Notes under the pieces: model-generated
The model's input: the letters and a program-made list of their open reading frames with translations, nothing else
Told to the model about the DNA's origin: nothing
Database searches by the model: none
Translations under genes and position numbers: made by a program
DNA from: a phage
Sequence record: NC_136442.1
Strand: one strand, 5' to 3'
Length of the DNA stretch: 50,809 nt
In this document: in pieces, positions 8,844 to 38,383 of the stretch
Layout of the letters: every line of letters starts with the position of its first letter
Position numbering within the stretch: position 1 is the first letter of the stretch

Positions 8844-8866
8844 CCCGCCTTGCGCGGGTTTTTTTG
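8844..8866 (+). terminator. intrinsic terminator after I
   Basis: ACCCGCC-TTGC-GCGGGT hairpin plus TTTTTTT. Confidence 0.8.
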
Positions 8867-8914
8867 TGCCTTTATAATGTGCAAACCAAGAAACAGCACA
8901 AAAGGTTAAAAGTC

Positions 8915-11900
8915 ATGGCTAAATATATGATAAGTGGCAGTAAAGGGGGCGGTCAAAAGCCCTACGTGCCAAAAGAGATGGAAGATAACCTGATCTCGAT
9001 AAACAAGATTAAAGTTTTGCTGGCTGTATCTGATGGCGAGTGCGATCCAGATTTTACGTTGCGTGATCTTTATCTTGATGATGTTCCGGTTATTGCCAGC
9101 GATGGCACTGTTAACTACGAGGGAGTTACGGCTGAATATAGGCCAGGTACGCAGACGCAAGATTACATCCAGGGTTTTACTGACACATCAAGTGAGGTTA
9201 CAGTTGCCAGAGATATTACCGGAGACAATCCTTATGTTATTTCTGTTACAAATAAAAACCTATCTGCGGTAAGAATAAAGATCCTGATGCCAGTAGGCAT
9301 TAAAACAGAGGATAATGGCGATCTTGTTGGCGTAAGGGTTGAGTATGCCGTAGATATGGCTGTTGATGGCGGTTCTTATAGCGAGGTTATGAGAGATGTA
9401 ATTGACGGCAAGACAAGATCAGGATACGACCGCAGCAGAAGGATTGATCTTCCTAAGTTTGATGAGCGCGTTTTAATCAGGGTTAAGCGACTTACCCCAG
9501 ACAGCACATCTTCAAAGGTGACTGATAAAATCAAACTGCAAAGTTACGCTGAGGTTGTGGATGCAAAATTCCGTTATCCTCTGACTGGCCTTGTATTTGT
9601 AGAATTTGACAGCGAATTGTTTCCTACACAAATCCCTAACATTTCTATAAAAAAGAAATGGAAGATTATTAATGTGCCAAGCAACTATGATCCAATATCA
9701 AGAGAATATCACGGGTCATGGGATGGGACTTTTAAGAAAGCGTGGTCAAATAATCCTGCATGGGTTCTTTATGATCTGGTGACGAATCAGCGTTATGGGC
9801 TTGACCAGCGAGAGTTAGGGATACAGATCGACAAGTGGAGCTTATACGAGGCAGGCGTTTACTGTGATCAGAAAGTTCCAGACGGTAAGGGCGGTACAGA
9901 GCCTCGCTACCTATGCGATGTGGTGATTCAGAATCAAGTTGAGGCTTATCAGCTAATCCGTGACATTTGCTCAATCTTTCGCGGAATGAGCTTTTGGAAT
10001 GGTGAGAGCTTATCAATCGTGATTGATAAGCCGCGCGATCCATCATACGTGTTTACTAATGAAAACGTCATCAACGGTGATTTTCAGTACACAACCGCAA
10101 GCGAAAAAAGCATGTACACGCAATGTAATGTGACGTTTGACGACGAACAAAACATGTATCAACAGGACGTCGAGGGGGTTTTTGATACTGAGGCGGCATT
10201 ACGATTTGGATACAATCCAACAAGCATTACAGCGATCGGGTGTACACGCAGGAGCGAAGCGAATCGTCGAGGTCGGTGGGTTTTGAAAACAAACCTTAGA
10301 AGCACTACTGTAAACTTTGCTACTGGACTGGAGGGGATGATTCCATCCATAGGTGATGTGATTGCTATCGCTGATAATTTTCAGAGCAGCAATCTAACGT
10401 TAAATCTTTCGGGCCGAGTAATGGAAGTTTCAGGCTTGCAAGTTTTCGTTCCGTTTAAAGTTGATGCGCGTCCTGGTGATTTTATTATCATCAATAAGCC
10501 GGACGGCAAGCCAGTTAAGCGAACGATCTCAAAGGTGAGCGCGGACGGAAAAACCATTGAGTTAAATATTGGCTTTGGTTTTGATGTTAAGCCAGACACT
10601 GTTTTTGCGATTGACCGTACTGACCTTGCGTTGCAGCAATACGTTGTGACCACTATCAGCAAGGGAGATGACGAAAACGAGTTTACCTATTCAATCACGG
10701 CTGTGGAGTACGATCCGAACAAATACGACGAGATTGATTATGGCGTAAACATTGATGACAGGCCTACTTCAATTGTTCAGCCTGACGTGATGGCAGCGCC
10801 GGAGAATGTTCAGATCTCATCTTATTCTCGCGTCGTGCAGGGTGTTAGCGTTGAAACTATGGTTGTTTCATGGGATAAGGTTCCTTACGCATCGCTTTAT
10901 GAAATGCAGTGGCGAAAAGGTGATGGTAACTGGCTGAATACGCCGCAGACCGCTAACAAAGAGATAGAGGTAGAAGGAATTTATTCAGGCAACTACCAAG
11001 TAAGGGTGAGATCCGTTTCTGCAAGCGGTAACACTTCCCCGTGGTCAAAGATTGCAACAGCTACCCTGACAGGTAAAGTTGGCGAGCCAGGAGCGCCGAT
11101 TAATCTTACAGCTTCTGATAATGAAGTTTTTGGCATTCGTGTCAAATGGGGCATGCCGGAAGGATCTGGCGATACGGCTTACATTGAGCTTCACCAATCG
11201 CCAGATGGAACGGTGGAAAACTCAAGTTTGCTTACGCTGATTCCATATCCTCAATATGAGTATTGGCATAGCACGTTACCAGCGGGTAAAGTTGTATGGT
11301 ATAGAATCCGTAGCGTTGACAGGATCGGCAACGTTTCAGGCTGGACTGACTTTGTTCGTGGCATGGCGTCAGATGATGTTGAATCTGTTTTAGGCGACAT
11401 TCTTGACAAGATTTTTGATACCGAAGCTGGTCAAGAAATCAAAGAGAACGCCATAGACAGTGCCAACAAAATCAAAGACCAGGCGCAATCAATCATCCAG
11501 AACGCATTGGCAAATGATTCTGATGTTAGAGTTATGAAAAAGGAGAATGGGAAACGGAAAGCTGAATTTAGGCAATCTATACAGATGATTGCTGATGAAA
11601 CAGAGGCAAGGGTAACAGCGTTAACGCAATTAAAAGCAGAATTTGATGAGGAGATAACTAGCGAAGTAACAAGACTTGATCAGGCGATCGCAACAGAATC
11701 AGAAACGCGAGCAACAGCTATAGAGGAATTAAAATCACAGATTGGTGATGATATTCAGGGGCAGTTAACGAGAGTTGAGGAAGCGATTGCAAGCGAAACA
11801 GAAGCGCGCGTTTCTGCCGATACTGCATTAACGGCAAAGTTTGGTGATCTTGAGTCAGCACTTACTGAAAAACTTGATTCATGGGCTGGCGTTGATTCCG

Positions 11901-12340
11901 TTGGTGCTCAATATTCAATGAAGCTGGGCCTAACCTATAACGGTCAGCAGTACAGCGCCGGAATGGTTATGCAGTTAACGCAATCACCGCAAGGATTAAT
12001 ATCACAGATTCTGTTTGACGCTAACAGATTCGCGATCATGACAAGTTCTAGCGGCGGGGTATATACGCTTCCTTTCGTGGTTGAGAATAACCAGGTTTTC
12101 ATCAATAGCTTACTTGTGAAAGATGGTTCAATAACTAATGCTATGATTGGAAACTTTATTCAGTCAAACAATTTTGTTCAAAATCAGCAAGGTTGGAGGC
12201 TTGATAAAAACGGAATATTTGAAAACTACGGATCAACTCCAGGAGAGGGAGCTACTAAATTCACCAACGAAGGATTGAAGGTAAAAGATGCAAACGGAGT
12301 ATTGAGGGTTGAAGTCGGAAGGATTACCGGAAGCTGGTAA
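8915..12340 (+). CDS. host specificity protein J-like (central tail fibre / tip)
   Basis: About 1140 aa, last gene of the lambda-like tail tip cluster; start chosen at MAKYMISGSK. Confidence 0.8.
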   Translation: MAKYMISGSKGGGQKPYVPKEMEDNLISINKIKVLLAVSDGECDPDFTLRDLYLDDVPVIASDGTVNYEGVTAEYRPGTQTQDYIQGFTDTSSEVTVARDITGDNPYVISVTNKNLSAVRIKILMPVGIKTEDNGDLVGVRVEYAVDMAVDGGSYSEVMRDVIDGKTRSGYDRSRRIDLPKFDERVLIRVKRLTPDSTSSKVTDKIKLQSYAEVVDAKFRYPLTGLVFVEFDSELFPTQIPNISIKKKWKIINVPSNYDPISREYHGSWDGTFKKAWSNNPAWVLYDLVTNQRYGLDQRELGIQIDKWSLYEAGVYCDQKVPDGKGGTEPRYLCDVVIQNQVEAYQLIRDICSIFRGMSFWNGESLSIVIDKPRDPSYVFTNENVINGDFQYTTASEKSMYTQCNVTFDDEQNMYQQDVEGVFDTEAALRFGYNPTSITAIGCTRRSEANRRGRWVLKTNLRSTTVNFATGLEGMIPSIGDVIAIADNFQSSNLTLNLSGRVMEVSGLQVFVPFKVDARPGDFIIINKPDGKPVKRTISKVSADGKTIELNIGFGFDVKPDTVFAIDRTDLALQQYVVTTISKGDDENEFTYSITAVEYDPNKYDEIDYGVNIDDRPTSIVQPDVMAAPENVQISSYSRVVQGVSVETMVVSWDKVPYASLYEMQWRKGDGNWLNTPQTANKEIEVEGIYSGNYQVRVRSVSASGNTSPWSKIATATLTGKVGEPGAPINLTASDNEVFGIRVKWGMPEGSGDTAYIELHQSPDGTVENSSLLTLIPYPQYEYWHSTLPAGKVVWYRIRSVDRIGNVSGWTDFVRGMASDDVESVLGDILDKIFDTEAGQEIKENAIDSANKIKDQAQSIIQNALANDSDVRVMKKENGKRKAEFRQSIQMIADETEARVTALTQLKAEFDEEITSEVTRLDQAIATESETRATAIEELKSQIGDDIQGQLTRVEEAIASETEARVSADTALTAKFGDLESALTEKLDSWAGVDSVGAQYSMKLGLTYNGQQYSAGMVMQLTQSPQGLISQILFDANRFAIMTSSSGGVYTLPFVVENNQVFINSLLVKDGSITNAMIGNFIQSNNFVQNQQGWRLDKNGIFENYGSTPGEGATKFTNEGLKVKDANGVLRVEVGRITGSW

Positions 12341-12345
12341 AAAAA

Positions 12346-12368
12346 GGGGGCATAGCCCCCTTTAATTT
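12346..12368. terminator. bidirectional terminator between J and the leftward locus
   Basis: GGGGGC-ATA-GCCCCC hairpin flanked by A-run and T-run. Confidence 0.8.
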
Positions 12369-12982
12369 TAATCATAGTGTGATGCATTTATAACCAAAAC
12401 AGATGAGGCGGTGTAAATACCAACAGGTCCAGGGGTTTGTGCAACCTGCCTGGAAAAAGAGTAGATCCCGTTACCATACGCGGCAGCTTGAGACTCAAAA
12501 ATCATAAATCCACCTAAAGCCGGATTAGGTACAGAGTTTAACGCTGTTAGTGATGGCATTATTGCGCAAGGGTAGCCCAGGTTAACATCAAACGCGATCC
12601 CGCTCACACCAACTTGCTTTGCATCAAGCGGCCTCATTTTTCCATGATAAACCATTTCACCATGAGCGTTATAAAACGCTATGCCGTGACTACCTGGAGG
12701 AGTCACCATGTTACTAAAAGCATAAACAATAACCTCCCCTTGATTATCAGATCTATCAATTCTTATTGCGTGCCTTCCGCCATTGTTAAATTGCGTAAAT
12801 GATATGTATGATTTAGCAGTCAATCTAACAAAGAAAAAACATACCCTATCAACAGGAATTGACGAAGTAAAAACGGTTCCGGTATTAGCAGATATTACGG
12901 CCCGATCAATTAGATTAACTGGAGTGAAATCTGGACTTAACCATAACGATCCGTCTGGTTTTTTTATACTCATCCCGTACAT
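12368..12982 (-). CDS. hypothetical protein, candidate receptor-binding protein (or C-terminal part of one)
   Basis: 204-aa ORF downstream of J on the opposite strand; ATG chosen after GGGGG RBS; a T5G5 run separates it from the upstream ORF in another frame. Confidence 0.5.
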   Translation of the reverse strand: MYGMSIKKPDGSLWLSPDFTPVNLIDRAVISANTGTVFTSSIPVDRVCFFFVRLTAKSYISFTQFNNGGRHAIRIDRSDNQGEVIVYAFSNMVTPPGSHGIAFYNAHGEMVYHGKMRPLDAKQVGVSGIAFDVNLGYPCAIMPSLTALNSVPNPALGGFMIFESQAAAYGNGIYSFSRQVAQTPGPVGIYTASSVLVINASHYD

Positions 12983-12984
12983 TA

Positions 12985-13263
12985 TCACCCCCAAAAAGTA
13001 TATATATATCTTGAATCAGATCCAGAAAGCCCACTCCATGTAACGGTGTCGCCACTTACCCCTAAGTTTGGCGCTCCAGGGTCGCCACCACGCCAGGAAT
13101 TCATGCCAACATATATTGCTTTCAATGATTTACCTGGTGGCCTGTTTTGGTAAGTCTTGCTACCTGATGGCTGAGTGAATTTATCAAGGAAGAAAACAGG
13201 CGTTAAAAGTCCTGTAACTTCCCTTCCTCGATCGTCATATATTGCATAACCATATTGCGCCAT
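12985..13263 (-). CDS. hypothetical protein (92 aa), possibly N-terminal part of a frameshifted receptor-binding gene
   Basis: GAGGTG RBS; ends in TGA inside a TTTTTGGGGG run just upstream of the next ORF. Confidence 0.5.
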   Translation of the reverse strand: MAQYGYAIYDDRGREVTGLLTPVFFLDKFTQPSGSKTYQNRPPGKSLKAIYVGMNSWRGGDPGAPNLGVSGDTVTWSGLSGSDSRYIYTFWG

Positions 13264-13532
13264 TAATTACACCTCAAATCAATAAATTTACTTTCATTTT
13301 GCCAACGGTTGATAAATTTAACTTCTTTATTGTCAACGCTCAACCTGTATTGCTTTTGGCTGAATCTGTTTTCGCGTACTGCATTAATTTTAACTTCATG
13401 GAATCCGTTAACAGGGAATGTTTTAACGTTAAATTTTGCCGTGCAGTCGATCTCATTGAAGTTGCCAGTAGGAGACGCTGCGCACCCGGTCAGAGCGGCT
13501 ACAGTGGCGATAACTGCGATTAATTTTTTCAT
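13263..13532 (-). CDS. lipoprotein, candidate superinfection-exclusion protein (Cor/Llp-like role)
   Basis: N-terminus MKKLIAVIATVAALTGC carries a lipobox; AAGGAG RBS 8 nt upstream of ATG at 13532. Confidence 0.6.
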   Translation of the reverse strand: MKKLIAVIATVAALTGCAASPTGNFNEIDCTAKFNVKTFPVNGFHEVKINAVRENRFSQKQYRLSVDNKEVKFINRWQNESKFIDLRCN

Positions 13533-13563
13533 CTTCAATACTCCTTAGTTGTCGTTGCCTGTA

Positions 13564-25722: not shown

Positions 25723-25938
25723 ATGAAAGATTTTATTAACGCAGCTACCGCCGGATCTGGCGGTTCATCTATCGCAAGCGCCGCTACAGGGCAGTTAACC
25801 ATTGCTATTGCCAGTTTTATTTTAATGGCTGCATTCGGTGCGTGGGGCGCTTACCTTCGCTGGCGTGATAGTAAAAAATTCCACGAGGCGATCGAAAAAG
25901 GTGATATTCAAAAAGCTATTGAGATCAGGGGCAAGTAA
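25723..25938 (+). CDS. holin (small, possibly pinholin-type)
   Basis: 71 aa, hydrophobic helix [21 protein letters not shown], charged C-terminus, directly upstream of endolysin. Confidence 0.7.
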
Positions 25939-26429
25939 TGAGCATAAAGAACAGGGTAGCGGCTGCGGCCTTTGGCGTTGCGGTTGCCTTGACTTCTCCA
26001 CTTCTTGAAGAGATCGAAGGGGTAAGATACAAGCCATACAAAGATATTGCGGGGGTATGGACGGTTTGCGCAGGAATCACCGGACCCGATGTTATCCTGG
26101 GGAAAACGTACACTAAAAAAGAGTGTGATGCTTTGTTGGCTAAGCATATCCAGGTTGCCAAAAAGGAAGTTGACAAGCAAGTTAAGGTTGACATTCCTGA
26201 TAGTATGCGTGCAGCAATGTACTCATTCACTTACAATGCAGGTGTGGGAGCTTTCAGAAATTCAACAATGCTGAAACTCATCAACCAGGGGAAATTAAAA
26301 GATGCTTGCGATCAGCTTTATCGTTGGACGTATTACCATAACCCCAAAACAGGAAGGCGCGAGAAGTCTAAAGGCTTACTTAACAGGCGCAATGTCGAAT
26401 ACAAATATTGCACAATGGATCTGAAATGA
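25938..26429 (+). CDS. endolysin, lysozyme-like with N-terminal signal-anchor-release (SAR) domain
   Basis: Catalytic-type E-x8-D-x5-T ([16 protein letters not shown]) after a weakly hydrophobic N-terminus [18 protein letters not shown]. Confidence 0.7.
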
Positions 26430-26821
26430 TGAAGAAATTTTTACTTACACCAATCGCAATGGCGGTGATCTTGTCTGGATGTTCAAGCGTTACGCCACTG
26501 ACCGGATTAATCGGCAGTAAGCCGGAAATCACAGCACAGGCTGGCGCGGAGAACGTGAAGCAGACAGTTGGCATTACAGCAAAGCAGGACGCCAGCACAA
26601 AACAGAAAACCACAATAAAGGAATCTGCGGTTGACAAGGTTGACACGTCCAGCAAGAAGGATTTCACAACATCAACCATTCAGGCCAATACCATCAAGGC
26701 AGACAAAATTCAGGTCGTGCAGGGTAATAACGGCAGATGGTACGATCCAATAATCATATGCGTGGTTGTGTTAATTGTGCTGATTTGTCTTTACTGGAGA
26801 GAAAAGAAAAAGGAGGCTTAA
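26426..26821 (+). CDS. unimolecular spanin (T1 gp11-like): lipoprotein signal plus C-terminal transmembrane helix
   Basis: Lipobox ILSGC at the N-terminus and C-terminal [15 protein letters not shown] helix in one polypeptide. Confidence 0.7.
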
Positions 26822-33215: not shown

Positions 33216-33469
33216 TTTTTCTTCTCCTGCAATAAGCAAACATCATTGATAAAATCAGCACGGCCCTTAATGTTGCTGATGTGGAACGTCTTTTCAGCGT
33301 ACAGGCCATCACCTTCAATCACGATCATTACGCGAGTCGGTTTATTTACGGGCGCACACGAAAAGAGTGGTCGCGCCGGAAGAAATTTAGTAGCCACATC
33401 CAGGTTAGCCCTGGCGGCCCTGCAAAACGCCTCCGCCAGATCCAAATCATTTTCGGTAATCACCGCCAT
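33203..33469 (-). CDS. hypothetical protein (88 aa)
   Basis: TAATG coupling with upstream gene. Confidence 0.5.
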   Translation of the reverse strand: MAVITENDLDLAEAFCRAARANLDVATKFLPARPLFSCAPVNKPTRVMIVIEGDGLYAEKTFHISNIKGRADFINDVCLLQEKKKCWM

Positions 33470-33741
33470 TACTTCTTGATCTCCTCACTGATAAATTTCA
33501 GCACCTGACGCAAGAAAACCTCGTTGTTGATAGTCGCTGGCAATTCTTCTTTCACTTCTTGCGGCAGATAGATATTGCCGTGCCAGGTCAAGCAATCGTA
33601 GTTGATACGATAAGAGCAAAGCCACTCGCAATCGTTATCTGCTTCCCAAATGCAGAGTTGCAGAACATCGCCAAAATCTTCAACAGTCAGATCCAGACCG
33701 TGACGCTTAGCGAAATTGAAAGTGGTTTTGCTGATGTTCAT
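33469..33741 (-). CDS. hypothetical protein (90 aa), first gene of the leftward early block
   Basis: Follows motif cassette; AGGAGA RBS. Confidence 0.6.
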   Translation of the reverse strand: MNISKTTFNFAKRHGLDLTVEDFGDVLQLCIWEADNDCEWLCSYRINYDCLTWHGNIYLPQEVKEELPATINNEVFLRQVLKFISEEIKK

Positions 33742-33775
33742 TGCTATCTCCTGAGCGGTTCGTTTCGATGTGTGT

Positions 33776-33819
33776 AATGTACCCGATCAGGTGGCCTGAG
33801 TTTTAACAAAAAGTGCTAT
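33776..33819 (-). promoter_or_regulatory. motif-type promoter cassette (consensus motif, 18 nt, TACATT)
   Basis: Read on minus strand; leader ACACACATCGAAACGAAC. Confidence 0.6.
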
Positions 33820-33850
33820 TTGACGGTTAGAGCCAGGATTGTGATCGAAA

Positions 33851-33938
33851 TAATCAGAAGTAATCATTCGTAATCAAATCACGTCAAAATGATGATTGCC
33901 TTTGCAAATTTGATGAGAAAAGTAATCACGTTTAATCA
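33851..33938. repeat. five TAATCA direct repeats phased at 10-bp intervals (33851, 33861, 33871, 33923, 33933)
   Basis: Read directly; helical phasing in a non-coding divergent region. Confidence 0.8.
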
Positions 33939-34358
33939 TTGGTTGCAGGGGAGATAGTGAAACATTCCCCTCTTGCCTCACTTTTCCGCCTGGCTGTCAG
34001 TGGTTGTTATGTTCCGTTCCCGCCTGTTCTTTTGTTGACCTTCCGCAAAATACGATAACAAAAAATAACAAACAATACCTATATAATACATTGAAAAATA
34101 AGGATTATTTATTTATATGTATCTATATATTCTCTTTTGTTATCTTGGTTATTGTGGTATTTGGTGGGGGTATATAGTTTTTGTGTATCTATATGTGTGT
34201 ATGGGTATGTAAGGGCATATATATCTATATGGCACTTTCCGCGAGAAAACTTCGATAACAATCAATGATAACATTGATTTATAAGGAAAAATAACGCCTA
34301 TATTGTTATTGTGCCACCATATAAAATTGATAAAACACGCGGGAACAAGAAAAAACAG

Positions 34359-34387
34359 TTGACACATTAAATAGCATTATTGATAAT
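34359..34387 (+). promoter_or_regulatory. consensus sigma70-type promoter TTGACA-17-GATAAT for the rightward early block
   Basis: Perfect -35, 17-nt spacer, -10 GATAAT, followed by AGGAGG RBS and ATG 34416. Confidence 0.7.
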
Positions 34388-34415
34388 GCCGACACCTAAC
34401 AACCAGGAGGCAGAA

Positions 34416-34880
34416 ATGAGCGAGCAATCATTCACTGACACGCTGCGCCGTGCAGCTATTATGCTGGCTAATGGCGAGGAAGAGACGATTAAGATTCCTG
34501 ACGCGTATTTGCAGGTCCACATGTTCGGCAAGAAGTCGGCAAGCAATCCGGCGGCCTACATTCGCCAGATCATGAGTCGAGTGCCAGAAGTCGCCGAGCG
34601 GGGGCGCGTATCCGTTACCCGTGGCGTTTACGGGCCGGAAGATGAAAACTTCGGTAGCACTTTCTACGAGGTGCGCATTGTTGAAGGCCGTCGCAAGGTT
34701 TACAACAAAGAGGCACTGGAAAGGGCAGTACGCCAGGCTAAGCGCAAAGTTGCAGAGGCGATCATTGATATGTCACCCAACCTGGCAAACTATGCGCCGG
34801 AAGAGTATGAAACATTATCAAAGGCCGTCGCTGACTTTCACGCGATGATCAAAAAAACTTTCCTGGAGGATGAGCAATGA
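34416..34880 (+). CDS. hypothetical protein (154 aa), first rightward early gene
   Basis: AGGAGG RBS 6 nt upstream; immediately downstream of the consensus promoter. Confidence 0.65.
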   Translation: MSEQSFTDTLRRAAIMLANGEEETIKIPDAYLQVHMFGKKSASNPAAYIRQIMSRVPEVAERGRVSVTRGVYGPEDENFGSTFYEVRIVEGRRKVYNKEALERAVRQAKRKVAEAIIDMSPNLANYAPEEYETLSKAVADFHAMIKKTFLEDEQ

Positions 34881-35137
34881 AAAAGGCGTTAATCGGTGTT
34901 TTGGTGGCAATGACACTCCTGACCGGATGCGAAAAGGCATCAGAATCAACGGTTGTCGTAGGCGTGGAGTCAGATTTCAAAGTCGGCCGCCTGTTCACTG
35001 TTGACGGATGCACAGCATACAGATTCTATGATAACGGTCGCGCGATCTATTACACCAATTGCAAAGGCGCAACGGATAGCACGTACAACAGCGGAAAGAA
35101 CGTAATGCACCAGCAAGTCACAACAGATATTAAATAG
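34877..35137 (+). CDS. lipoprotein (86 aa)
   Basis: Signal MKKALIGVLVAMTLLTGC with lipobox; ATGA overlap with upstream gene. Confidence 0.6.
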   Translation: MKKALIGVLVAMTLLTGCEKASESTVVVGVESDFKVGRLFTVDGCTAYRFYDNGRAIYYTNCKGATDSTYNSGKNVMHQQVTTDIK

Positions 35138-35177
35138 CACTTTTTGTTAAAACGCCAGGCGCAAAGCCTGGCATAAT
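35134..35177 (+). promoter_or_regulatory. motif-type promoter cassette (consensus motif, hairpin GCCAGGCGCAAAGCCTGGC, CATAAT)
   Basis: Read directly; leader AGCCTCATCGAAACGAGA then GAGGAA RBS. Confidence 0.65.
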
Positions 35178-35209
35178 AGCCTCATCGAAACGAGATTGAG
35201 GAAACAAAA

Positions 35210-35395
35210 ATGGCACGTCGCATCACCAAAGACCTTAAAGTTCTTAACAAAGAAAACGTAGTTAAAATCCTGGTTATCTGGGGCTACAACGAAGAAACAG
35301 CAAAGCAGAAGGTAGAGGCAGGTTATGACCTGGCTGTAAAAGCAATGCCAAACGACGACGCCAAAGGCATTGCAAACTATGTAGCTTTCTTTTAA
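35210..35395 (+). CDS. hypothetical protein (61 aa)
   Basis: ORF after cassette with RBS. Confidence 0.55.
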   Translation: MARRITKDLKVLNKENVVKILVIWGYNEETAKQKVEAGYDLAVKAMPNDDAKGIANYVAFF

Positions 35396-35410
35396 TTAGC
35401 AGGTGAATAA

Positions 35411-35596
35411 ATGAAAACGAAATTAGTCCATAAATCAGAAATCAAGATCGGCGATACTGTGATTCACAACGGAGAGCTTAGAACGGTTGGCAAAGAGTCA
35501 ATAAGCCACGATGAATTTATGGGGATTTTGTTGTTCGGTGACTCTTATCGTCTTGGTTACAAGATGGTTGAGCTTGTGGAAGAGGTAAAATTCTAA
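35411..35596 (+). CDS. hypothetical protein (61 aa)
   Basis: GGTGA RBS; stop adjacent to next motif. Confidence 0.5.
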   Translation: MKTKLVHKSEIKIGDTVIHNGELRTVGKESISHDEFMGILLFGDSYRLGYKMVELVEEVKF

Positions 35597-35640
35597 ATAG
35601 CACTTTTTGTTAAAACTCAAAAACGACAACCAGGCATAAT
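35597..35640 (+). promoter_or_regulatory. motif-type promoter cassette (consensus motif, 18 nt, CATAAT)
   Basis: Read directly; leader contains hairpin GGGGCGGCACGGCGTCGCCC. Confidence 0.6.
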
Positions 35641-35695
35641 AAATCACATGGGGCGGCACGGCGTCGCCCAGTAAAACCAATCAGGAGAAAGCATC

Positions 35696-36586
35696 ATGTT
35701 AAAACTTACTGACATTAAATTCCCGATCACCTTCGAATCTCGCGGCGTTGGTCATTTCATGTTTACCGACGAGAAGACATGCACTAAGTTTAACGAATAC
35801 GGAAGTCCAAACGCTTCAACAATGGAGATTGAACACTTCATTGAAGCGCACAATAAACACTACAACTCACTCAGAGACTACGGTTACGCAATGCCAGGCT
35901 ACACCTGTTTCCACTACAAGCCATATAAAGGCCAGGTGTTGCCAGTGCGCTCACCGGAACGCGCAGAGATTCCGATGGTCGAGATGAAAACCTGCGACTA
36001 TAAAAAATTGTGGTGCTTAAGTGTGGACAATATCAAGTATCCGATCACGTTCCGCTCCGCTGGTAATTCAACGATTCGCTACACATCGCGCGACAATGGC
36101 GTTTATAGCAGTGGTCAGAAATCAGAGCTTAAGGTGGATTTCTTTGTTAATGGTCATAATAAATACAATCCGCACAATGAAAAAGATAAGATTTACTATG
36201 TGGAAGACATTACAAAACACTTGTTTGGAGAAACTCCATTCGGCGGCGGAAAGACGTCAATTCAAAAAATAATTGGCGAGGAGATCCACAAAGCGGCTGC
36301 CGAAATGAAAGCGCCTGGAGGCTGGCGTATTGATAAGAGCGCCTTTGCAAATCAAGAAATCGTAACGCAGGGCGCGATTGAAGATATGCCAGTTGCAGCC
36401 ACGCTAAAAGGAGTCCGGCTTGATGATGGTGTGTGGTTTGAATTAACGGCTACACCAAAGACGATCGAGATTCATGATGATGTTGTTATCCTCCTGCTTC
36501 ACTACGGCGGCACTAAAAATCGGACTGTTGCAGGTGAGATCAGCATCAAGCGCGGAACGACGGTTAAGTGGAAGGTAAAGATTTGA
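35696..36586 (+). CDS. hypothetical protein (296 aa) with internal tandem duplication
   Basis: Segments DIKFPITFESRGVGH and NIKYPITFRSAGNST repeated within the protein; AGGAGA RBS. Confidence 0.65.
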   Translation: MLKLTDIKFPITFESRGVGHFMFTDEKTCTKFNEYGSPNASTMEIEHFIEAHNKHYNSLRDYGYAMPGYTCFHYKPYKGQVLPVRSPERAEIPMVEMKTCDYKKLWCLSVDNIKYPITFRSAGNSTIRYTSRDNGVYSSGQKSELKVDFFVNGHNKYNPHNEKDKIYYVEDITKHLFGETPFGGGKTSIQKIIGEEIHKAAAEMKAPGGWRIDKSAFANQEIVTQGAIEDMPVAATLKGVRLDDGVWFELTATPKTIEIHDDVVILLLHYGGTKNRTVAGEISIKRGTTVKWKVKI

Positions 36587-36662
36587 GTTTGTTCACTGCG
36601 GCGCACGTCGCCGCATGGATCGGATTGTTTGCCTACCTGTTTAGATTTTATTGAGGTGAGAG

Positions 36663-36815
36663 ATGGCTACCTGGATTTTGCTGATTCTTATGATTGATGG
36701 CGGCGTTGACCATATCGAAATGAATAGCCAGCAATCTTGCATTGAGGCACGAGAGCAGATCAAGAACAACAACAGGTTTTATGCGTACACTCACACGCTA
36801 TGTATTAAGAAATAG
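36663..36815 (+). CDS. hypothetical small hydrophobic protein (50 aa)
   Basis: GAGGTGAGAG RBS; stop TAG lies inside next motif; below ORF-track cutoff. Confidence 0.45.
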   Translation: MATWILLILMIDGGVDHIEMNSQQSCIEAREQIKNNNRFYAYTHTLCIKK

Positions 36816-36854
36816 CACTTTTTGTTAAAACTCAAATGTGGGGCCAGGTATAAT
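36812..36854 (+). promoter_or_regulatory. motif-type promoter cassette (consensus motif, TATAAT inside hairpin GGCCAGG...GGCC)
   Basis: Read directly. Confidence 0.6.
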
Positions 36855-36884
36855 GGCCTCACTTTCAACGAAGGAGATAAAACG

Positions 36885-37115
36885 ATGTACATTAAAAAGA
36901 AGATGAAATGCGTTTCCGTTAACTATGCTTGCTCTGGCATGTTCAAGCCTGGCGAAATCTATACGGCGCAAAAACTGAAATCATCAACCGGATCTTTTTA
37001 CGTGAGCAATAGTAAGGGGCATCGCATGTTCCTGAACGGCGGCGAAGGCACTAAGGTTATGGCACACGCTATGGTAATGGCTGAATTTGAGGAAGTGAAA
37101 GATGAAAACAAATAA
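36885..37115 (+). CDS. hypothetical protein (76 aa)
   Basis: AAGGAGA RBS before ATG 36885. Confidence 0.55.
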   Translation: MYIKKKMKCVSVNYACSGMFKPGEIYTAQKLKSSTGSFYVSNSKGHRMFLNGGEGTKVMAHAMVMAEFEEVKDENK

Positions 37116-37323
37116 GCGCGTCAAGCACAGGTTTACTGATAACCACGGCGACGCGATTGATGTATACAAGTTCGGAGATCGCGTGTTTATTGATGGCACG
37201 TTTGAAGGTGGGCGTAGGCCGGATTTTAGGTCGATACTTACCGTTGACCAAGTGCGCAAGCTGGCAGATAAGTTAAATGATCTGGCAGATGAAATAGAAT
37301 ACAAGCAAATCCATTTTAATTGA
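37102..37323 (+). CDS. hypothetical protein (73 aa)
   Basis: Overlaps previous gene end; GAGGAAG upstream. Confidence 0.5.
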   Translation: MKTNKRVKHRFTDNHGDAIDVYKFGDRVFIDGTFEGGRRPDFRSILTVDQVRKLADKLNDLADEIEYKQIHFN

Positions 37324-37334
37324 TAGGTTTGATA

Positions 37335-38045
37335 ATGAAAAAATACACTTTCGAACTGTGGGGCAAGAAGTACGAATTTACGACAAGCAAGCCGATTGTT
37401 ATCGTTGACCTAGACGGCACACTATCGGACGGATCGCATCGTTTGCATTTGCTGCCAACTGAAAACTTGCACCTTACGGAATCGTGGCGCGAGTTTAACA
37501 GGGCCGCCGCCGGAGATTCACCTATTAAAAGCACTATCGCGGTTATTAACGGTTTATGGGTGTCGGGATTTGCCATCGTCATCTTGACCGGACGCAGCGA
37601 CGAGGTTCGCTATGAAACCTGCAAATGGTTGAATGAGAACGGCGTGAAGTTTGACGAAATCATCATGCGCCGCCATGAGGACAACCGAAAGGATACGGTT
37701 ATTAAAGAAGAAGCCTTGCGCGCTATTGGCCTGGACAACATTGTTTGCGCCTTTGACGATTCGCCGAACGTGGTTAAGCACTTCCGCAGCTTGGGGATCA
37801 CAACCTATCAGGTCACGGAATACGACAAGCCACACGCTCACATACAATCTCACGGCGTGGAATCAATCAAGATAACGAAGCGCGCCCGATTCGTTGGCAG
37901 CAAAGATAGCCTTGTCAATGCCAGCTTTACCAGAGGAATAGCCTATGACGTTGTTTCTTATCATGACAAGAGTTTTATAGTTCATGATGATTCTGGATGC
38001 GCCTGGTCATTCAATCATAGTGACGGCGATTTTGTTAATGCGTAA
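37335..38045 (+). CDS. HAD-superfamily phosphatase (nucleotidase or polynucleotide 3-phosphatase-like)
   Basis: Motif I VIVDLDGTLSDG (DxDGT) near the N-terminus; ATG at 37335 chosen over TTG at 37320. Confidence 0.55.
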   Translation: MKKYTFELWGKKYEFTTSKPIVIVDLDGTLSDGSHRLHLLPTENLHLTESWREFNRAAAGDSPIKSTIAVINGLWVSGFAIVILTGRSDEVRYETCKWLNENGVKFDEIIMRRHEDNRKDTVIKEEALRAIGLDNIVCAFDDSPNVVKHFRSLGITTYQVTEYDKPHAHIQSHGVESIKITKRARFVGSKDSLVNASFTRGIAYDVVSYHDKSFIVHDDSGCAWSFNHSDGDFVNA

Positions 38046-38088
38046 TAGCACTTTTTGTTAAAACATCTCAACGGGCTTGCGGTATAGT
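38045..38088 (+). promoter_or_regulatory. motif-type promoter cassette (consensus motif, 18 nt, TATAGT within hairpin GGGCTT...AAGCCC)
   Basis: Read directly; leader CATCAACAACAAACGAGGA. Confidence 0.6.
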
Positions 38089-38119
38089 AAGCCCATCAAC
38101 AACAAACGAGGATTAAATC

Positions 38120-38383
38120 ATGGCTAACAAGATCGAATTTTTCAAAGCGGTAGACATTATTGATGGCGCGCCTAGCTTCTTTGCGAACCATTCTATTGAC
38201 GGCAAGGATATTGGGTACAACGTTATCCGTCGAGATGGAATATCAAAACTTAGTGACCTGGTAGGCCATATTGTGTCAATCGGGAAATGCGCATGGCCCG
38301 ATTCGCCACGAGAGCCGCGCCGCCGCGACATGATTAATCCTGAATTGCTTTACACGCTGGTAGTAGAGGGAGAAAATAAATGA
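38120..38383 (+). CDS. hypothetical protein (87 aa)
   Basis: GAGGA RBS. Confidence 0.55.
   Translation: MANKIEFFKAVDIIDGAPSFFANHSIDGKDIGYNVIRRDGISKLSDLVGHIVSIGKCAWPDSPREPRRRDMINPELLYTLVVEGENK

What the first reader, a model, noticed from the sequence alone, without database searches (positions are those of the whole stretch)
34877..35137. Second lipoprotein, encoded as the second gene of the rightward early operon
The 86-aa product has a classical lipobox signal (LLTGC) and is expressed from the consensus sigma70 promoter at 34359 together with the 154-aa first early protein. An early-expressed outer-membrane or periplasmic lipoprotein, distinct from the one at the receptor locus, could mediate superinfection exclusion or block a receptor or envelope process.
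Basis: partly seen in the sequence, partly recalled or inferred. Interest (0 to 1): 0.4.

Follow-up and report, generated by a model that had tools for sequence, protein, structure and literature searches.

The report
Phage DUF4884 lipoprotein, function unknown
This is a real gene of a T1-like coliphage for a small, lipid-anchored, disulfide-bonded envelope protein of the widespread but uncharacterised DUF4884 family; it is not a relative of the known receptor-blocking exclusion lipoproteins, and what it does remains untested.

Summary
ORF 34877..35137 (+) encodes 86 aa with a textbook lipoprotein signal (MKK, hydrophobic core, L-T-G-C18). It overlaps the stop of the upstream DUF7174 gene (ATGA) and lies behind the best sigma70-like site in the region (TTGACA-17-GATAAT, 34359..34387). 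The window is a Warwickvirus (Drexlerviridae), 99% identical to phages tiwna and atuna.

The protein belongs to DUF4884 (PF16225). This is a large family (1247 clusters at 50% identity) of ~85-aa lipoproteins. It occurs in phages and prophages of Proteobacteria and in chromosomes of Bacteroidota. Cys45 and Cys62 are kept together or lost together (121 / 17 / 0), which implies a disulfide. The model is a six-stranded beta sheet (pLDDT 86) with no match in PDB or BFVD to Llp, Cor or anything of known function.

It is the third lipobox ORF in the window, not the second. A Cor-like gene (13263..13532) and a u-spanin-like gene (26429..26821) also exist.

The allele is uncoupled from the receptor module in both directions. 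That argues against a Cor/Llp-type receptor blocker. An envelope role such as receptor-independent exclusion is plausible but unproven. Early timing is inferred, not shown.

Ordinary accessory gene of unknown function; modest interest.

The parts
34359..34387 (+). sigma70-type promoter-like site, TTGACA - 17 nt - GATAAT (11 of 12)
   Evidence: It is the best-scoring site in 33400..38200, and 100% identical in tiwna and JLBYU10. Function not tested.
34416..34880 (+). First gene of the rightward cluster: 154-aa DUF7174 protein (SD AGGAGG at 34405..34410)
   Evidence: ORF. PF23796, 99 bits, above its cut-off; phrog_4841, unknown function.
34865..34880 (+). Translational coupling element: SD GGAGG (34865..34869) and the ATGA start/stop overlap (34877..34880)
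   Evidence: Read directly from the sequence.
34877..35137 (+). DUF4884-family lipoprotein gene, 86 aa precursor (stop codon included)
   Evidence: and 57 (107.7 bits to the family profile built here).
34877..34930 (+). Type II (lipoprotein) signal peptide, residues 1-17, plus the lipid-modified Cys18. The lipobox LTGC is at 34919..34930.
   Evidence: pattern scan; the lipobox Cys is present in 137/138 family representatives. The mosaic junction with allele-B phages falls exactly at the Cys codon.
34931..35134 (+). Mature domain of 68 aa: six antiparallel beta strands. Conserved core L39 F40 .. D43 G44 C45 .. Y48 R49 F50 . D52 ... Y58 Y59 T60 N61 C62 . G64 ... G73 K74. Predicted disulfide C45 (35009..35011) to C62 (35060..35062).
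   Evidence: AF2 pLDDT 85.9, pTM 0.68; conservation, and the Cys pair is C/C in 121, both lost in 17, and singly lost in 0.
35154..35172 (+). GC-rich hairpin GCCAGGC-gcaaa-GCCTGGC, 17 nt after the stop codon. There is no U tract on the + strand, so it is not a canonical terminator. It is part of a strongly structured intergenic RNA.
   Evidence: MFE -29.1 kcal/mol, z = -5.7 for 35125..35215; no terminator-like site on the + strand.

Best explanation
What it is. ORF 34877..35137 is a functional accessory gene of a T1-like virulent coliphage (genus Warwickvirus). It encodes a small lipoprotein of the DUF4884 family.

Expression (inferred). Host sigma70 RNA polymerase starts at the promoter-like site at 34359..34387. 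This site lies in the divergent, AT-rich region that corresponds to the junction of the T1 genome ends. The gene is translated by coupling to the upstream DUF7174 gene.

Maturation (inferred from the established lipoprotein pathway). The precursor is exported by Sec. It is diacylglyceryl-modified at Cys18 by Lgt, cleaved by signal peptidase II, and N-acylated by Lnt. Because residue +2 is Glu and not Asp, Lol carries it to the inner leaflet of the outer membrane. In the oxidising periplasm the 68-aa mature domain folds into a six-stranded antiparallel beta sheet held by one disulfide, C45-C62.

Function (inferred, weakest step). It acts alone, since no partner gene is conserved. It acts in the periplasm of the infected cell on a broadly conserved envelope component, not on the phage's own receptor. 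The most likely benefit is protection or take-over of the envelope, for example receptor-independent exclusion of superinfecting phages or of their DNA entry.

My step-wise confidence: real lipoprotein gene 0.95; DUF4884 homologue 0.9; outer-membrane anchored and periplasmic 0.7; not a receptor-specific blocker 0.75; exclusion-type function 0.25.
For: Gene and signal:
- The ORF, SD sequence, ATGA overlap and lipobox are all present.
- There are only 3 lipobox ORFs in the window against 0.4 expected.

Family:
- Pfam DUF4884, E = 2e-5, and phrog_6360, E = 9e-12.
- All 37 close and 1114 profile-level homologues carry PF16225.
- An exhaustive profile search finds 1247 clusters at 50% identity.
- The lipobox Cys is present in 137/138 representatives, and Asp at +2 in only 8/138.

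Disulfide, hence an extracytoplasmic location:
- C45/C62 are C/C in 121 representatives, both replaced in 17, and singly replaced in 0.
- A Bacteroides member, BT_3183, was recovered as a fucosylated glycoprotein (PMC8931616). Bacteroides protein glycosylation is periplasmic (general knowledge), so this is consistent with export.

Fold:
- AF2 pLDDT 85.9, six strands.

Standalone and accessory:
- No conserved neighbour in 80 bacterial loci or in distant phages.
- Absent from T1.
- Present in about 118 phage records, against about 840 that carry a related large terminase.
- Absent from E. coli chromosomes and plasmids.

Not receptor-linked:
- At least 27 phages share the window's Cor-like allele at 94-100% identity. 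Six of these have a DUF4884 allele at >=97% identity and 21 have one at 43-50%.
- PeterMerian has a 98.8%-identical DUF4884 protein but a T1-type receptor/Cor locus.
- The core motif is the same in phages of Escherichia, Serratia, Pantoea, Pseudomonas and Xanthomonas.
Against: - No functional data exist for any DUF4884 member (two papers mention the name, neither studies it).
- The protein scores 24.7 bits against Pfam's own model, below the gathering cut-off of 30.
- Timing and promoter use are unverified, and promoter-like sites are not enriched over shuffles.
- The +2 rule for Lol sorting is an E. coli rule with known exceptions.
- The N- and C-terminal parts of the mature domain are highly variable between alleles. 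This could reflect adaptation to a variable target, which would not fit a conserved one.
- The Bacteroidota members sit among housekeeping genes, so the ancestral role need not concern phage infection at all.
Confidence: 0.45

Rival explanations
1. Receptor-blocking superinfection-exclusion lipoprotein of the Cor/Llp kind. It would bind the periplasmic face of the phage's outer-membrane receptor and allosterically close the phage-binding site.
For: It is a small lipoprotein with an intramolecular disulfide, probably made early, as Llp is (PMC9586334). The mature domain outside the core differs strongly between alleles, as expected for proteins in an arms race.
Against: - The window already has a Cor-like lipoprotein at the tail-tip locus. 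It has terminal cysteines and a weak full-length hit to the Cor model.
- The DUF4884 allele and the receptor module assort independently in both directions.
- There is no similarity to Cor beyond the signal peptide.
- The core is conserved across phages whose hosts lack the same receptors.
Confidence: 0.1
2. Binder of a conserved envelope molecule (peptidoglycan, LPS or lipid, or a conserved periplasmic enzyme such as a lytic transglycosylase or lysozyme). It would tune envelope integrity, lysis timing or resistance to lysis-from-without, rather than excluding other phages.
For: - The invariant residues are aromatic and polar (Y48 R49 F50 D52 Y58 N61 K74), as in many glycan- or ligand-binding sheets.
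- The family also exists as a chromosomal gene among housekeeping genes in Bacteroidota, which suggests a generic envelope role.
Against: - No significant structural or sequence match to any known binding domain or inhibitor.
- It is not located in the lysis cassette, which lies about 8 kb away at 25723..26821.
Confidence: 0.2
3. Counter-defence factor: it would neutralise an envelope-located host or prophage barrier, such as a host exclusion protein or a surface modification system.
For: - It lies among small, rapidly exchanged genes next to the putative early promoter, where phages keep anti-defence genes.
- There is modular allele replacement with a junction exactly at the lipobox Cys codon.
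- Presence in T1-like phages is patchy.
Against: No match in PADLOC, which covers defence systems and not anti-defence genes. No known envelope defence is targeted by a lipoprotein of this kind. The presence of chromosomal copies in Bacteroidota does not fit a dedicated anti-defence role.
Confidence: 0.1
4. Spanin-like or other lysis-cassette component.
For: A weak PHROG hit to an Rz-like spanin (E = 0.095), covering the signal peptide only.
Against: - A complete holin / endolysin / u-spanin-like cassette exists elsewhere, at 25723..26821. PeterMerian annotates the equivalent gene as u-spanin.
- This protein has no C-terminal transmembrane segment, no proline-rich o-spanin character and no overlapping i-spanin gene.
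Confidence: 0.03
5. Chance ORF or decaying gene without function.
For: A natural 27-codon in-frame deletion allele exists (P0027), and T1 lacks the gene. It is therefore dispensable for the basic lytic cycle.
Against: Deep conservation with invariant residues, the covarying Cys pair, the retained lipobox, and the SD sequence with translational coupling.
Confidence: 0.02

Closest known systems
DUF4884 (Pfam PF16225) proteins, e.g. Bacteroides thetaiotaomicron BT_3183, phage Rtp gene rtp3, and the 'DUF4884 domain-containing protein' of phages JLBYU10 and Henu8
   Same: Same length, the same lipobox followed by a short linker, and the same core F.V..LF..DGC.VYRF.D.G...YFTNC.G...GK. They are linked by profile searches. 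Relatives in GenBank already carry this label.
   Different: The window protein itself scores just under Pfam's cut-off (24.7 against 30 bits). It lacks the second CGKNC cysteine pair that about a quarter of members have. No member has a known function.
T5 Llp and T1/phi80/N15 Cor superinfection-exclusion lipoproteins
   Same: A small phage-encoded lipoprotein with one disulfide, a predicted periplasmic location and a presumed early promoter. The signal peptides look alike: 10 of 16 residues match PeterMerian's Cor homologue, and 12 of 30 match T1 Cor.
   Different: - No sequence similarity past the signal peptide and no fold match.
- The disulfide is internal (C45-C62), not a clamp on the termini like Llp Cys11-Cys58.
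- The gene is about 21 kb from the tail-tip locus.
- Its allele does not follow the receptor module.
- The window has a separate Cor-like gene at 13263..13532.
T1 gp11-type unimolecular spanin
   Same: An N-terminal lipoprotein signal in a T1-like phage.
   Different: The spanin has a C-terminal membrane anchor and lies in the lysis cassette. The window's candidate is 26429..26821. The DUF4884 protein has neither feature.
Lambda Bor and plasmid entry-exclusion lipoproteins (TrbK, EexN)
   Same: Small lipoproteins of mobile elements that act in the envelope.
   Different: There was no Pfam hit to any family other than DUF4884 and the generic lipoprotein-attachment model. The NCBIfam hit to EexN (E = 0.26) covers residues 3-24 only, which is the signal peptide.

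Membership tests
Bacterial lipoproteins (Lgt/LspA/Lnt substrates) | Positively charged n-region, a hydrophobic h-region of 7-20 residues, and the lipobox [LVI][ASTVI][GAS]C within the first ~35 residues | tested here: met
   MKK-ALIGVLVAMTL-LTGC18. The lipobox Cys is kept in 137/138 family representatives.
Bacterial lipoproteins (Lgt/LspA/Lnt substrates) | Actual lipid modification and signal peptidase II cleavage | not testable with these tools
   Needs globomycin or palmitate labelling, or mass spectrometry.
Bacterial lipoproteins (Lgt/LspA/Lnt substrates) | Outer-membrane sorting: no Asp at +2 (E. coli Lol-avoidance rule, established knowledge) | tested here: met
   Residue +2 is Glu19 and +3 is Lys20. 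Asp at +2 occurs in only 8/138 relatives. Localisation itself was not tested.
DUF4884 (PF16225) | Score at or above Pfam's gathering cut-off (30 bits) | tested here: not met
   24.7 bits, E = 2e-5, residues 32-60 on profile positions 3-33 of 49. This is a curated cut-off, not a biological feature.
DUF4884 (PF16225) | Homology to members that do pass, and possession of the family's core motif (LF..DGC.VYRF.D ... YFTNC.G) | tested here: met
   - 107.7 bits to a profile of 138 representatives.
- Every hit carries PF16225.
- A Parabacteroides locus found with the query's motif scores 68.8 bits against Pfam.
- The invariant residues are present.
Cor / Llp superinfection-exclusion lipoproteins | Sequence similarity to Cor or Llp beyond the signal peptide | tested here: not met
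   No hit to NCBIfam lamb_exclu_cor, whereas the window's other lipoprotein hits it over its full length. Matches between the profile and Cor stop just past the lipobox, within its first ~9 mature residues.
Cor / Llp superinfection-exclusion lipoproteins | Gene placed next to the receptor-binding / tail-tip genes | tested here: not met
   The gene is at 34.9 kb. The J-like gene ends at 12340, and the Cor-like gene is at 13263..13532.
Cor / Llp superinfection-exclusion lipoproteins | Allele co-varies with the receptor module | tested here: not met
   The same Cor-like allele occurs with two DUF4884 alleles about 46% identical to each other. The same DUF4884 allele (98.8%) occurs with a T1-type receptor locus in PeterMerian.
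Cor / Llp superinfection-exclusion lipoproteins | Disulfide that ties the N- and C-terminal ends of the mature protein (Llp Cys11-Cys58; PMC9586334) | tested here: not met
   The only mature-domain cysteines are C45 and C62, both central.
Cor / Llp superinfection-exclusion lipoproteins | Similar fold to Llp | tested here: not met
Cor / Llp superinfection-exclusion lipoproteins | Blocks infection through a defined receptor when expressed alone | not testable with these tools
   Needs efficiency-of-plating assays.
Spanins (o-spanin or u-spanin) | Located in the lysis cassette, and either has a partner i-spanin (o-spanin) or a C-terminal transmembrane segment (u-spanin) | tested here: not met
   The lysis cassette is at 25723..26821 with its own lipobox protein. 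The DUF4884 protein ends in the polar sequence ...HQQVTTDIK.

The most novel reading that the evidence does not exclude
DUF4884 lipoproteins may be a previously unrecognised class of receptor-independent envelope effectors. On this reading the domain was captured from (or shared with) cellular Bacteroidota lipoproteins and spread among phages of many Gram-negative hosts. It would act on a conserved periplasmic target to exclude superinfecting phages, or to protect the infected envelope, by a mechanism unlike that of Cor/Llp, Imm/Sp or Sie proteins.
Probability: 0.2. Interest if true: 0.6.

Novelty: new member of a known kind. Interest (0 to 1): 0.3.

Why it matters
If DUF4884 lipoproteins prove to be envelope effectors, a family of more than a thousand sequence clusters found in many phage groups would gain a function. 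T1-like phages would then be seen to carry two different lipoprotein-based envelope devices: a receptor-linked Cor-like one and a receptor-independent one. As it stands, the result mainly cleans up annotation. The gene should be called a 'DUF4884 family lipoprotein', not a second Cor. It is a cheap target for a plasmid-expression screen against a phage panel.

Tried and rejected
- Cor/Llp homology. The NCBIfam Cor model gave no hit. My family profile hit T1 Cor and the window's Cor-like protein through the signal peptide, running only a few residues past the lipobox. BLASTP gave the same result. Rejected.
- Defence or anti-defence libraries. PADLOC found nothing.
- Partner gene by guilt-by-association. 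I clustered the neighbours of 80 bacterial loci. The best neighbour family occurs in 11 loci (a TonB-dependent receptor); the rest are housekeeping genes. DUF7174 precedes the gene only in Warwickvirus. No partner was found.
- E. coli prophage or plasmid copies. None.
- T1 orthologue. None.
- Expression timing from the literature. No transcriptome of a T1-like phage was found.
- Operator hypothesis for the perfect palindrome at 34261..34278. It is unique in the window, so it is not a repeated operator.
- Rfam families in the window. None.
- The first attempt at a genome scan with the 138-sequence alignment failed because no stretch was conserved enough. It was repeated with 20 sequences.

Full report
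**Where we are**

The 50.8-kb window is essentially a whole genome of a T1-like siphovirus. The region 34300..35450 is 99.0% identical to Escherichia phage tiwna and 98.4% to atuna, both Drexlerviridae, Tempevirinae, Warwickvirus. Compared with T1, the 670-bp AT-rich gap at 33742..34415 corresponds to the junction of the T1 genome ends. Small genes run leftward and rightward from it, and the rightward arm leads to the terminase.

**The observation**

- ORF 34877..35137 (+) exists and encodes 86 aa: MKKALIGVLVAMTLLTGCEKASESTVVVGVESDFKVGRLFTVDGCTAYRFYDNGRAIYYTNCKGATDSTYNSGKNVMHQQVTTDIK.
- It has two lysines, a 12-residue hydrophobic core and the lipobox L-T-G-C18.
- A GGAGG lies 7 nt upstream of the start.
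- The ATG overlaps the TGA of the 154-aa upstream gene (ATGA at 34877..34880), the classical arrangement for translational coupling.
- The upstream gene is a DUF7174 protein (99 bits).
- The promoter-like site TTGACA-17-GATAAT at 34359..34387 matches 11 of 12 positions and is the best in 4.8 kb. Promoter-like sites as a class are not enriched over shuffles (12 against 8.6 +/- 3.1), so the site is a good candidate and not proof.
- No terminator-like site lies between it and the gene on the + strand.
- A lipoprotein-signal pattern is found in only three ORFs of the window, against 0.4 +/- 0.8 in shuffled sequence.
- The three are a Cor-like gene at 13263..13532 (-), a u-spanin-like gene at 26429..26821 (+) directly after a holin and a lysozyme, and the present one. 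It is therefore the third such ORF, not the second.

**What family it belongs to**

- Pfam gives DUF4884 (PF16225) at E = 2e-5 and 24.7 bits, just under the curated cut-off of 30.
- PHROGs gives phrog_6360, function unknown, at E = 9e-12.
- Every one of the 37 close homologues, and of the 1114 found with a family profile, carries PF16225 in the precomputed annotation.
- An exhaustive HMM search of 1.84 billion representatives finds 1247 clusters at E <= 1e-3, and 246 at E <= 1e-10.
- A profile built from 138 representatives scores the window protein at 107.7 bits.
- A Parabacteroides locus retrieved with the query's own motif passes Pfam's cut-off at 68.8 bits.
- I therefore treat it as a DUF4884 homologue. 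Related phage proteins in GenBank are already labelled this way: JLBYU10, Henu8, Pantoea phage AAS23 ('similar to rtp3 of Rtp'), Pseudomonas phage Jeremy and Xanthomonas phage X1.

**Anatomy of the family**

- Members are about 80-95 aa: signal peptide, lipobox Cys (137/138), a variable linker of about 15 residues, then the core F.V..LF..DGC.VYRF.D.G...Y[FY]TNC.G....GK and a variable tail.
- In the window protein the invariant or nearly invariant positions are L39, F40, D43, G44, C45, Y48, R49, F50, D52, Y58, C62, G64, G73 and K74.
- The two cysteines behave as a unit: C/C in 121 representatives, both replaced (I/V with R/A/T) in 17, and only one replaced in none. This is the signature of a disulfide, and hence of a protein that folds outside the cytoplasm.
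- About a quarter of members have a second pair (CGKNC). The window protein does not.
- Asp at +2 is rare (8/138), and the window protein has Glu-Lys. By the E. coli Lol rule (established knowledge) it should therefore go to the outer membrane.
- The only experimental trace of any member is that B. thetaiotaomicron BT_3183 was recovered among fucosylated glycoproteins (PMC8931616), which is consistent with export. The only other paper naming the family merely lists it in a phage annotation table.

**Structure**

- With 29 sequences the AF2 model was mediocre (pLDDT 71).
- With 114 diverse sequences and the mature domain only, it reached pLDDT 85.9 and pTM 0.68: six antiparallel strands in a meander.
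- Foldseek against BFVD returned only other DUF4884 or 'lipoprotein' entries, with no Cor and no Llp.
- A sequence search of PDB matched only signal peptides.

**Distribution and context**

- In the phage collection, 118 records carry a homologue. They are Warwickvirus and other Drexlerviridae (Rtp, Veterinaerplatzvirus, Sauletekiovirus), Serratia myoviruses, a Pseudomonas phage and a Xanthomonas jumbo phage.
- About 840 records carry a related large terminase, and T1 itself has no copy. The gene is therefore accessory.
- It is absent from complete E. coli genomes and from plasmids.
- In metagenomic contigs it lies among runs of small unknown genes in a 351-kb and a 100-kb phage-like contig. 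One further contig carries T4SS- and Omp85-type genes.
- In species-representative bacterial genomes there are 184 loci. The Pseudomonas ones are closest. The one examined in detail (L017) lies between RecE-like exonuclease, HNH endonuclease and NinI-like phosphatase genes, and another (L023) has a phage-type integrase nearby. Both are prophage-like settings.
- The many Bacteroidota loci lie among housekeeping genes: RlmL, ABC-F, chorismate-binding and TonB-dependent receptors.
- No neighbour is conserved. DUF7174 precedes the gene only in Warwickvirus. The protein thus appears to work on its own.

**Test of the receptor-blocker idea**

The window has, downstream of the J-like tail-tip gene (8864..12340), three minus-strand genes of 208, 92 and 89 aa. 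The last is a lipoprotein with cysteines near both ends and a weak but full-length match to the Cor model. It is the natural Cor/Llp analogue.

I then asked whether the DUF4884 allele follows this module. It does not.

- Phages sharing the Cor-like allele at 94-100% identity fall into two groups.
  - Allele A of DUF4884 (>=97% identity): tiwna, atuna, mar001J1, EcoS-95, FritzSarasin, JLBYU26.
  - Other alleles at 43-50% identity: JK16, JLBYU10, tonnikala, swan01, SECphi27, tonn, tunus, MatMar and about 15 more.
- Conversely, PeterMerian has a DUF4884 protein differing by one residue from the window's, but a T1-type locus. Its Cor is 56% identical to T1 Cor, the locus has plus-strand ST32/ST31-like genes, and there is only signal-peptide similarity to the window's Cor-like protein.
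- Records labelled Campylobacter phage A113 and A143 combine an 86% DUF4884 with a 51% Cor-like protein.
- The DNA comparison with JLBYU10 shows 97-100% identity from the promoter through the signal peptide. Identity then drops abruptly to 27-73% exactly after the Cys18 codon at 34928..34930. The mature domain is exchanged as a cassette, with the signal-peptide sequence serving as the left homology arm.

Together with the absence of sequence or fold similarity, the internal rather than terminal disulfide (Llp: Cys11-Cys58, PMC9586334), and conservation of the core in phages of hosts with different receptors, this makes a Cor/Llp-type mechanism unlikely. I put it at about 0.1.

**Most likely mechanism**

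What the data show:
- a real gene;
- a lipoprotein signal;
- a disulfide-bonded extracytoplasmic beta domain;
- accessory, standalone, and independent of the receptor module.

Inferred from established pathways: Sec export, Lgt/LspA/Lnt maturation at Cys18, Lol transfer to the inner leaflet of the outer membrane, and DsbA oxidation.

Inferred from position: transcription by host RNA polymerase from 34359..34387 soon after injection, and coupled translation with DUF7174.

Speculative: the domain engages a broadly conserved envelope component, and the benefit is protection or take-over of the envelope. Receptor-independent exclusion is the single most likely reading (about 0.25). Binding of a conserved envelope molecule that affects integrity or lysis comes next (about 0.2), then counter-defence (about 0.1). 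The variability of the linker and tail between alleles is the main observation that none of these explains well.

**Novelty and verdict**

Identical or near-identical proteins are already in public records as 'hypothetical' or 'DUF4884 domain-containing'. The family is catalogued but has no function. This is a new member of a known, uncharacterised kind. Interest is modest at 0.3. It would rise if a plasmid-expression screen showed a receptor-independent exclusion phenotype.

Noticed in passing
window 35138..35209: The 72-nt spacer between the lipoprotein gene and the next gene (DUF7421, 35210..35395) folds unusually well: -29.1 kcal/mol, z = -5.7, with 0 of 200 shuffles as stable. It contains a GC hairpin at 35154..35172, and a second hairpin plus a long-range stem that pair the GAGG Shine-Dalgarno sequence and start region of the downstream gene. 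This could be a processing or stability element, or translational control. There is no Rfam match.
   Followed up: partly
window 33742..34415: A 670-bp AT-rich, repeat-rich gap lies between the leftward and rightward small-gene arms. It is equivalent to the junction of the T1 genome ends. It holds a perfect 18-bp palindrome, ATCAATGATAACATTGAT (34261..34278), which is unique in the window, and several GATAACAA / TTGTTATC repeats. It is a candidate pac or regulatory region.
   Followed up: partly
window 12368..13538 (- strand): The receptor locus differs from T1's. It has three minus-strand genes of 208, 92 and 89 aa. The 208-aa protein is 44% identical to proteins of Stx-converting phages (933W L0127). 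The 89-aa product is a Cor-like lipoprotein with cysteines near both ends (CAASP...IDCTA...LRCN). PeterMerian and T1 instead have two plus-strand genes and a 75-aa Cor.
   Followed up: partly
window 34924..34930 and 35005..35011: A 7-nt direct repeat, CGGATGC, covers the lipobox Cys codon and the Cys45 codon, 81 nt apart. A natural 59-aa allele (P0027, seen on 5 contigs of up to 51 kb) is exactly the in-frame deletion between these repeats (MSKSLIGVLIAIATLTGC-TAYRF...). It loses one partner of the disulfide and is probably a loss-of-function variant, consistent with a dispensable gene.
   Followed up: partly
window 26429..26821 (+): A third lipobox ORF (130 aa, [18 protein letters not shown]) lies directly after a holin-like gene (25723..25938) and a lysozyme gene (25938..26429). 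It is the T1 gp11-type unimolecular spanin candidate. The equivalent gene is annotated u-spanin in PeterMerian.
   Followed up: partly
phage records MG065636, MG065649, MG065680, MG065685 and others: Seven records named 'Campylobacter phage' with host C. jejuni match this window's genes as T1-like coliphages do (DUF4884 86-91% identical; 21 such records in the terminase search). The host label looks doubtful, or the phages were carried over from another host.
   Followed up: no
P0046, P0061, P0064, P0113, P0155, P0163: Some DUF4884 representatives are 160-290 aa, with long N-terminal extensions before the lipobox. Two share a conserved cytoplasmic-looking N-terminal region followed by a hydrophobic segment. 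They may be mis-called starts or genuine fusions.
   Followed up: no
L003 (Shigella phage JK16) 2501..3203: JK16 has an extra segment of about 580 bp with a 68-aa ORF inserted between the conserved promoter region and the DUF7174 gene. This is another sign that the region is a hotspot for insertions.
   Followed up: no
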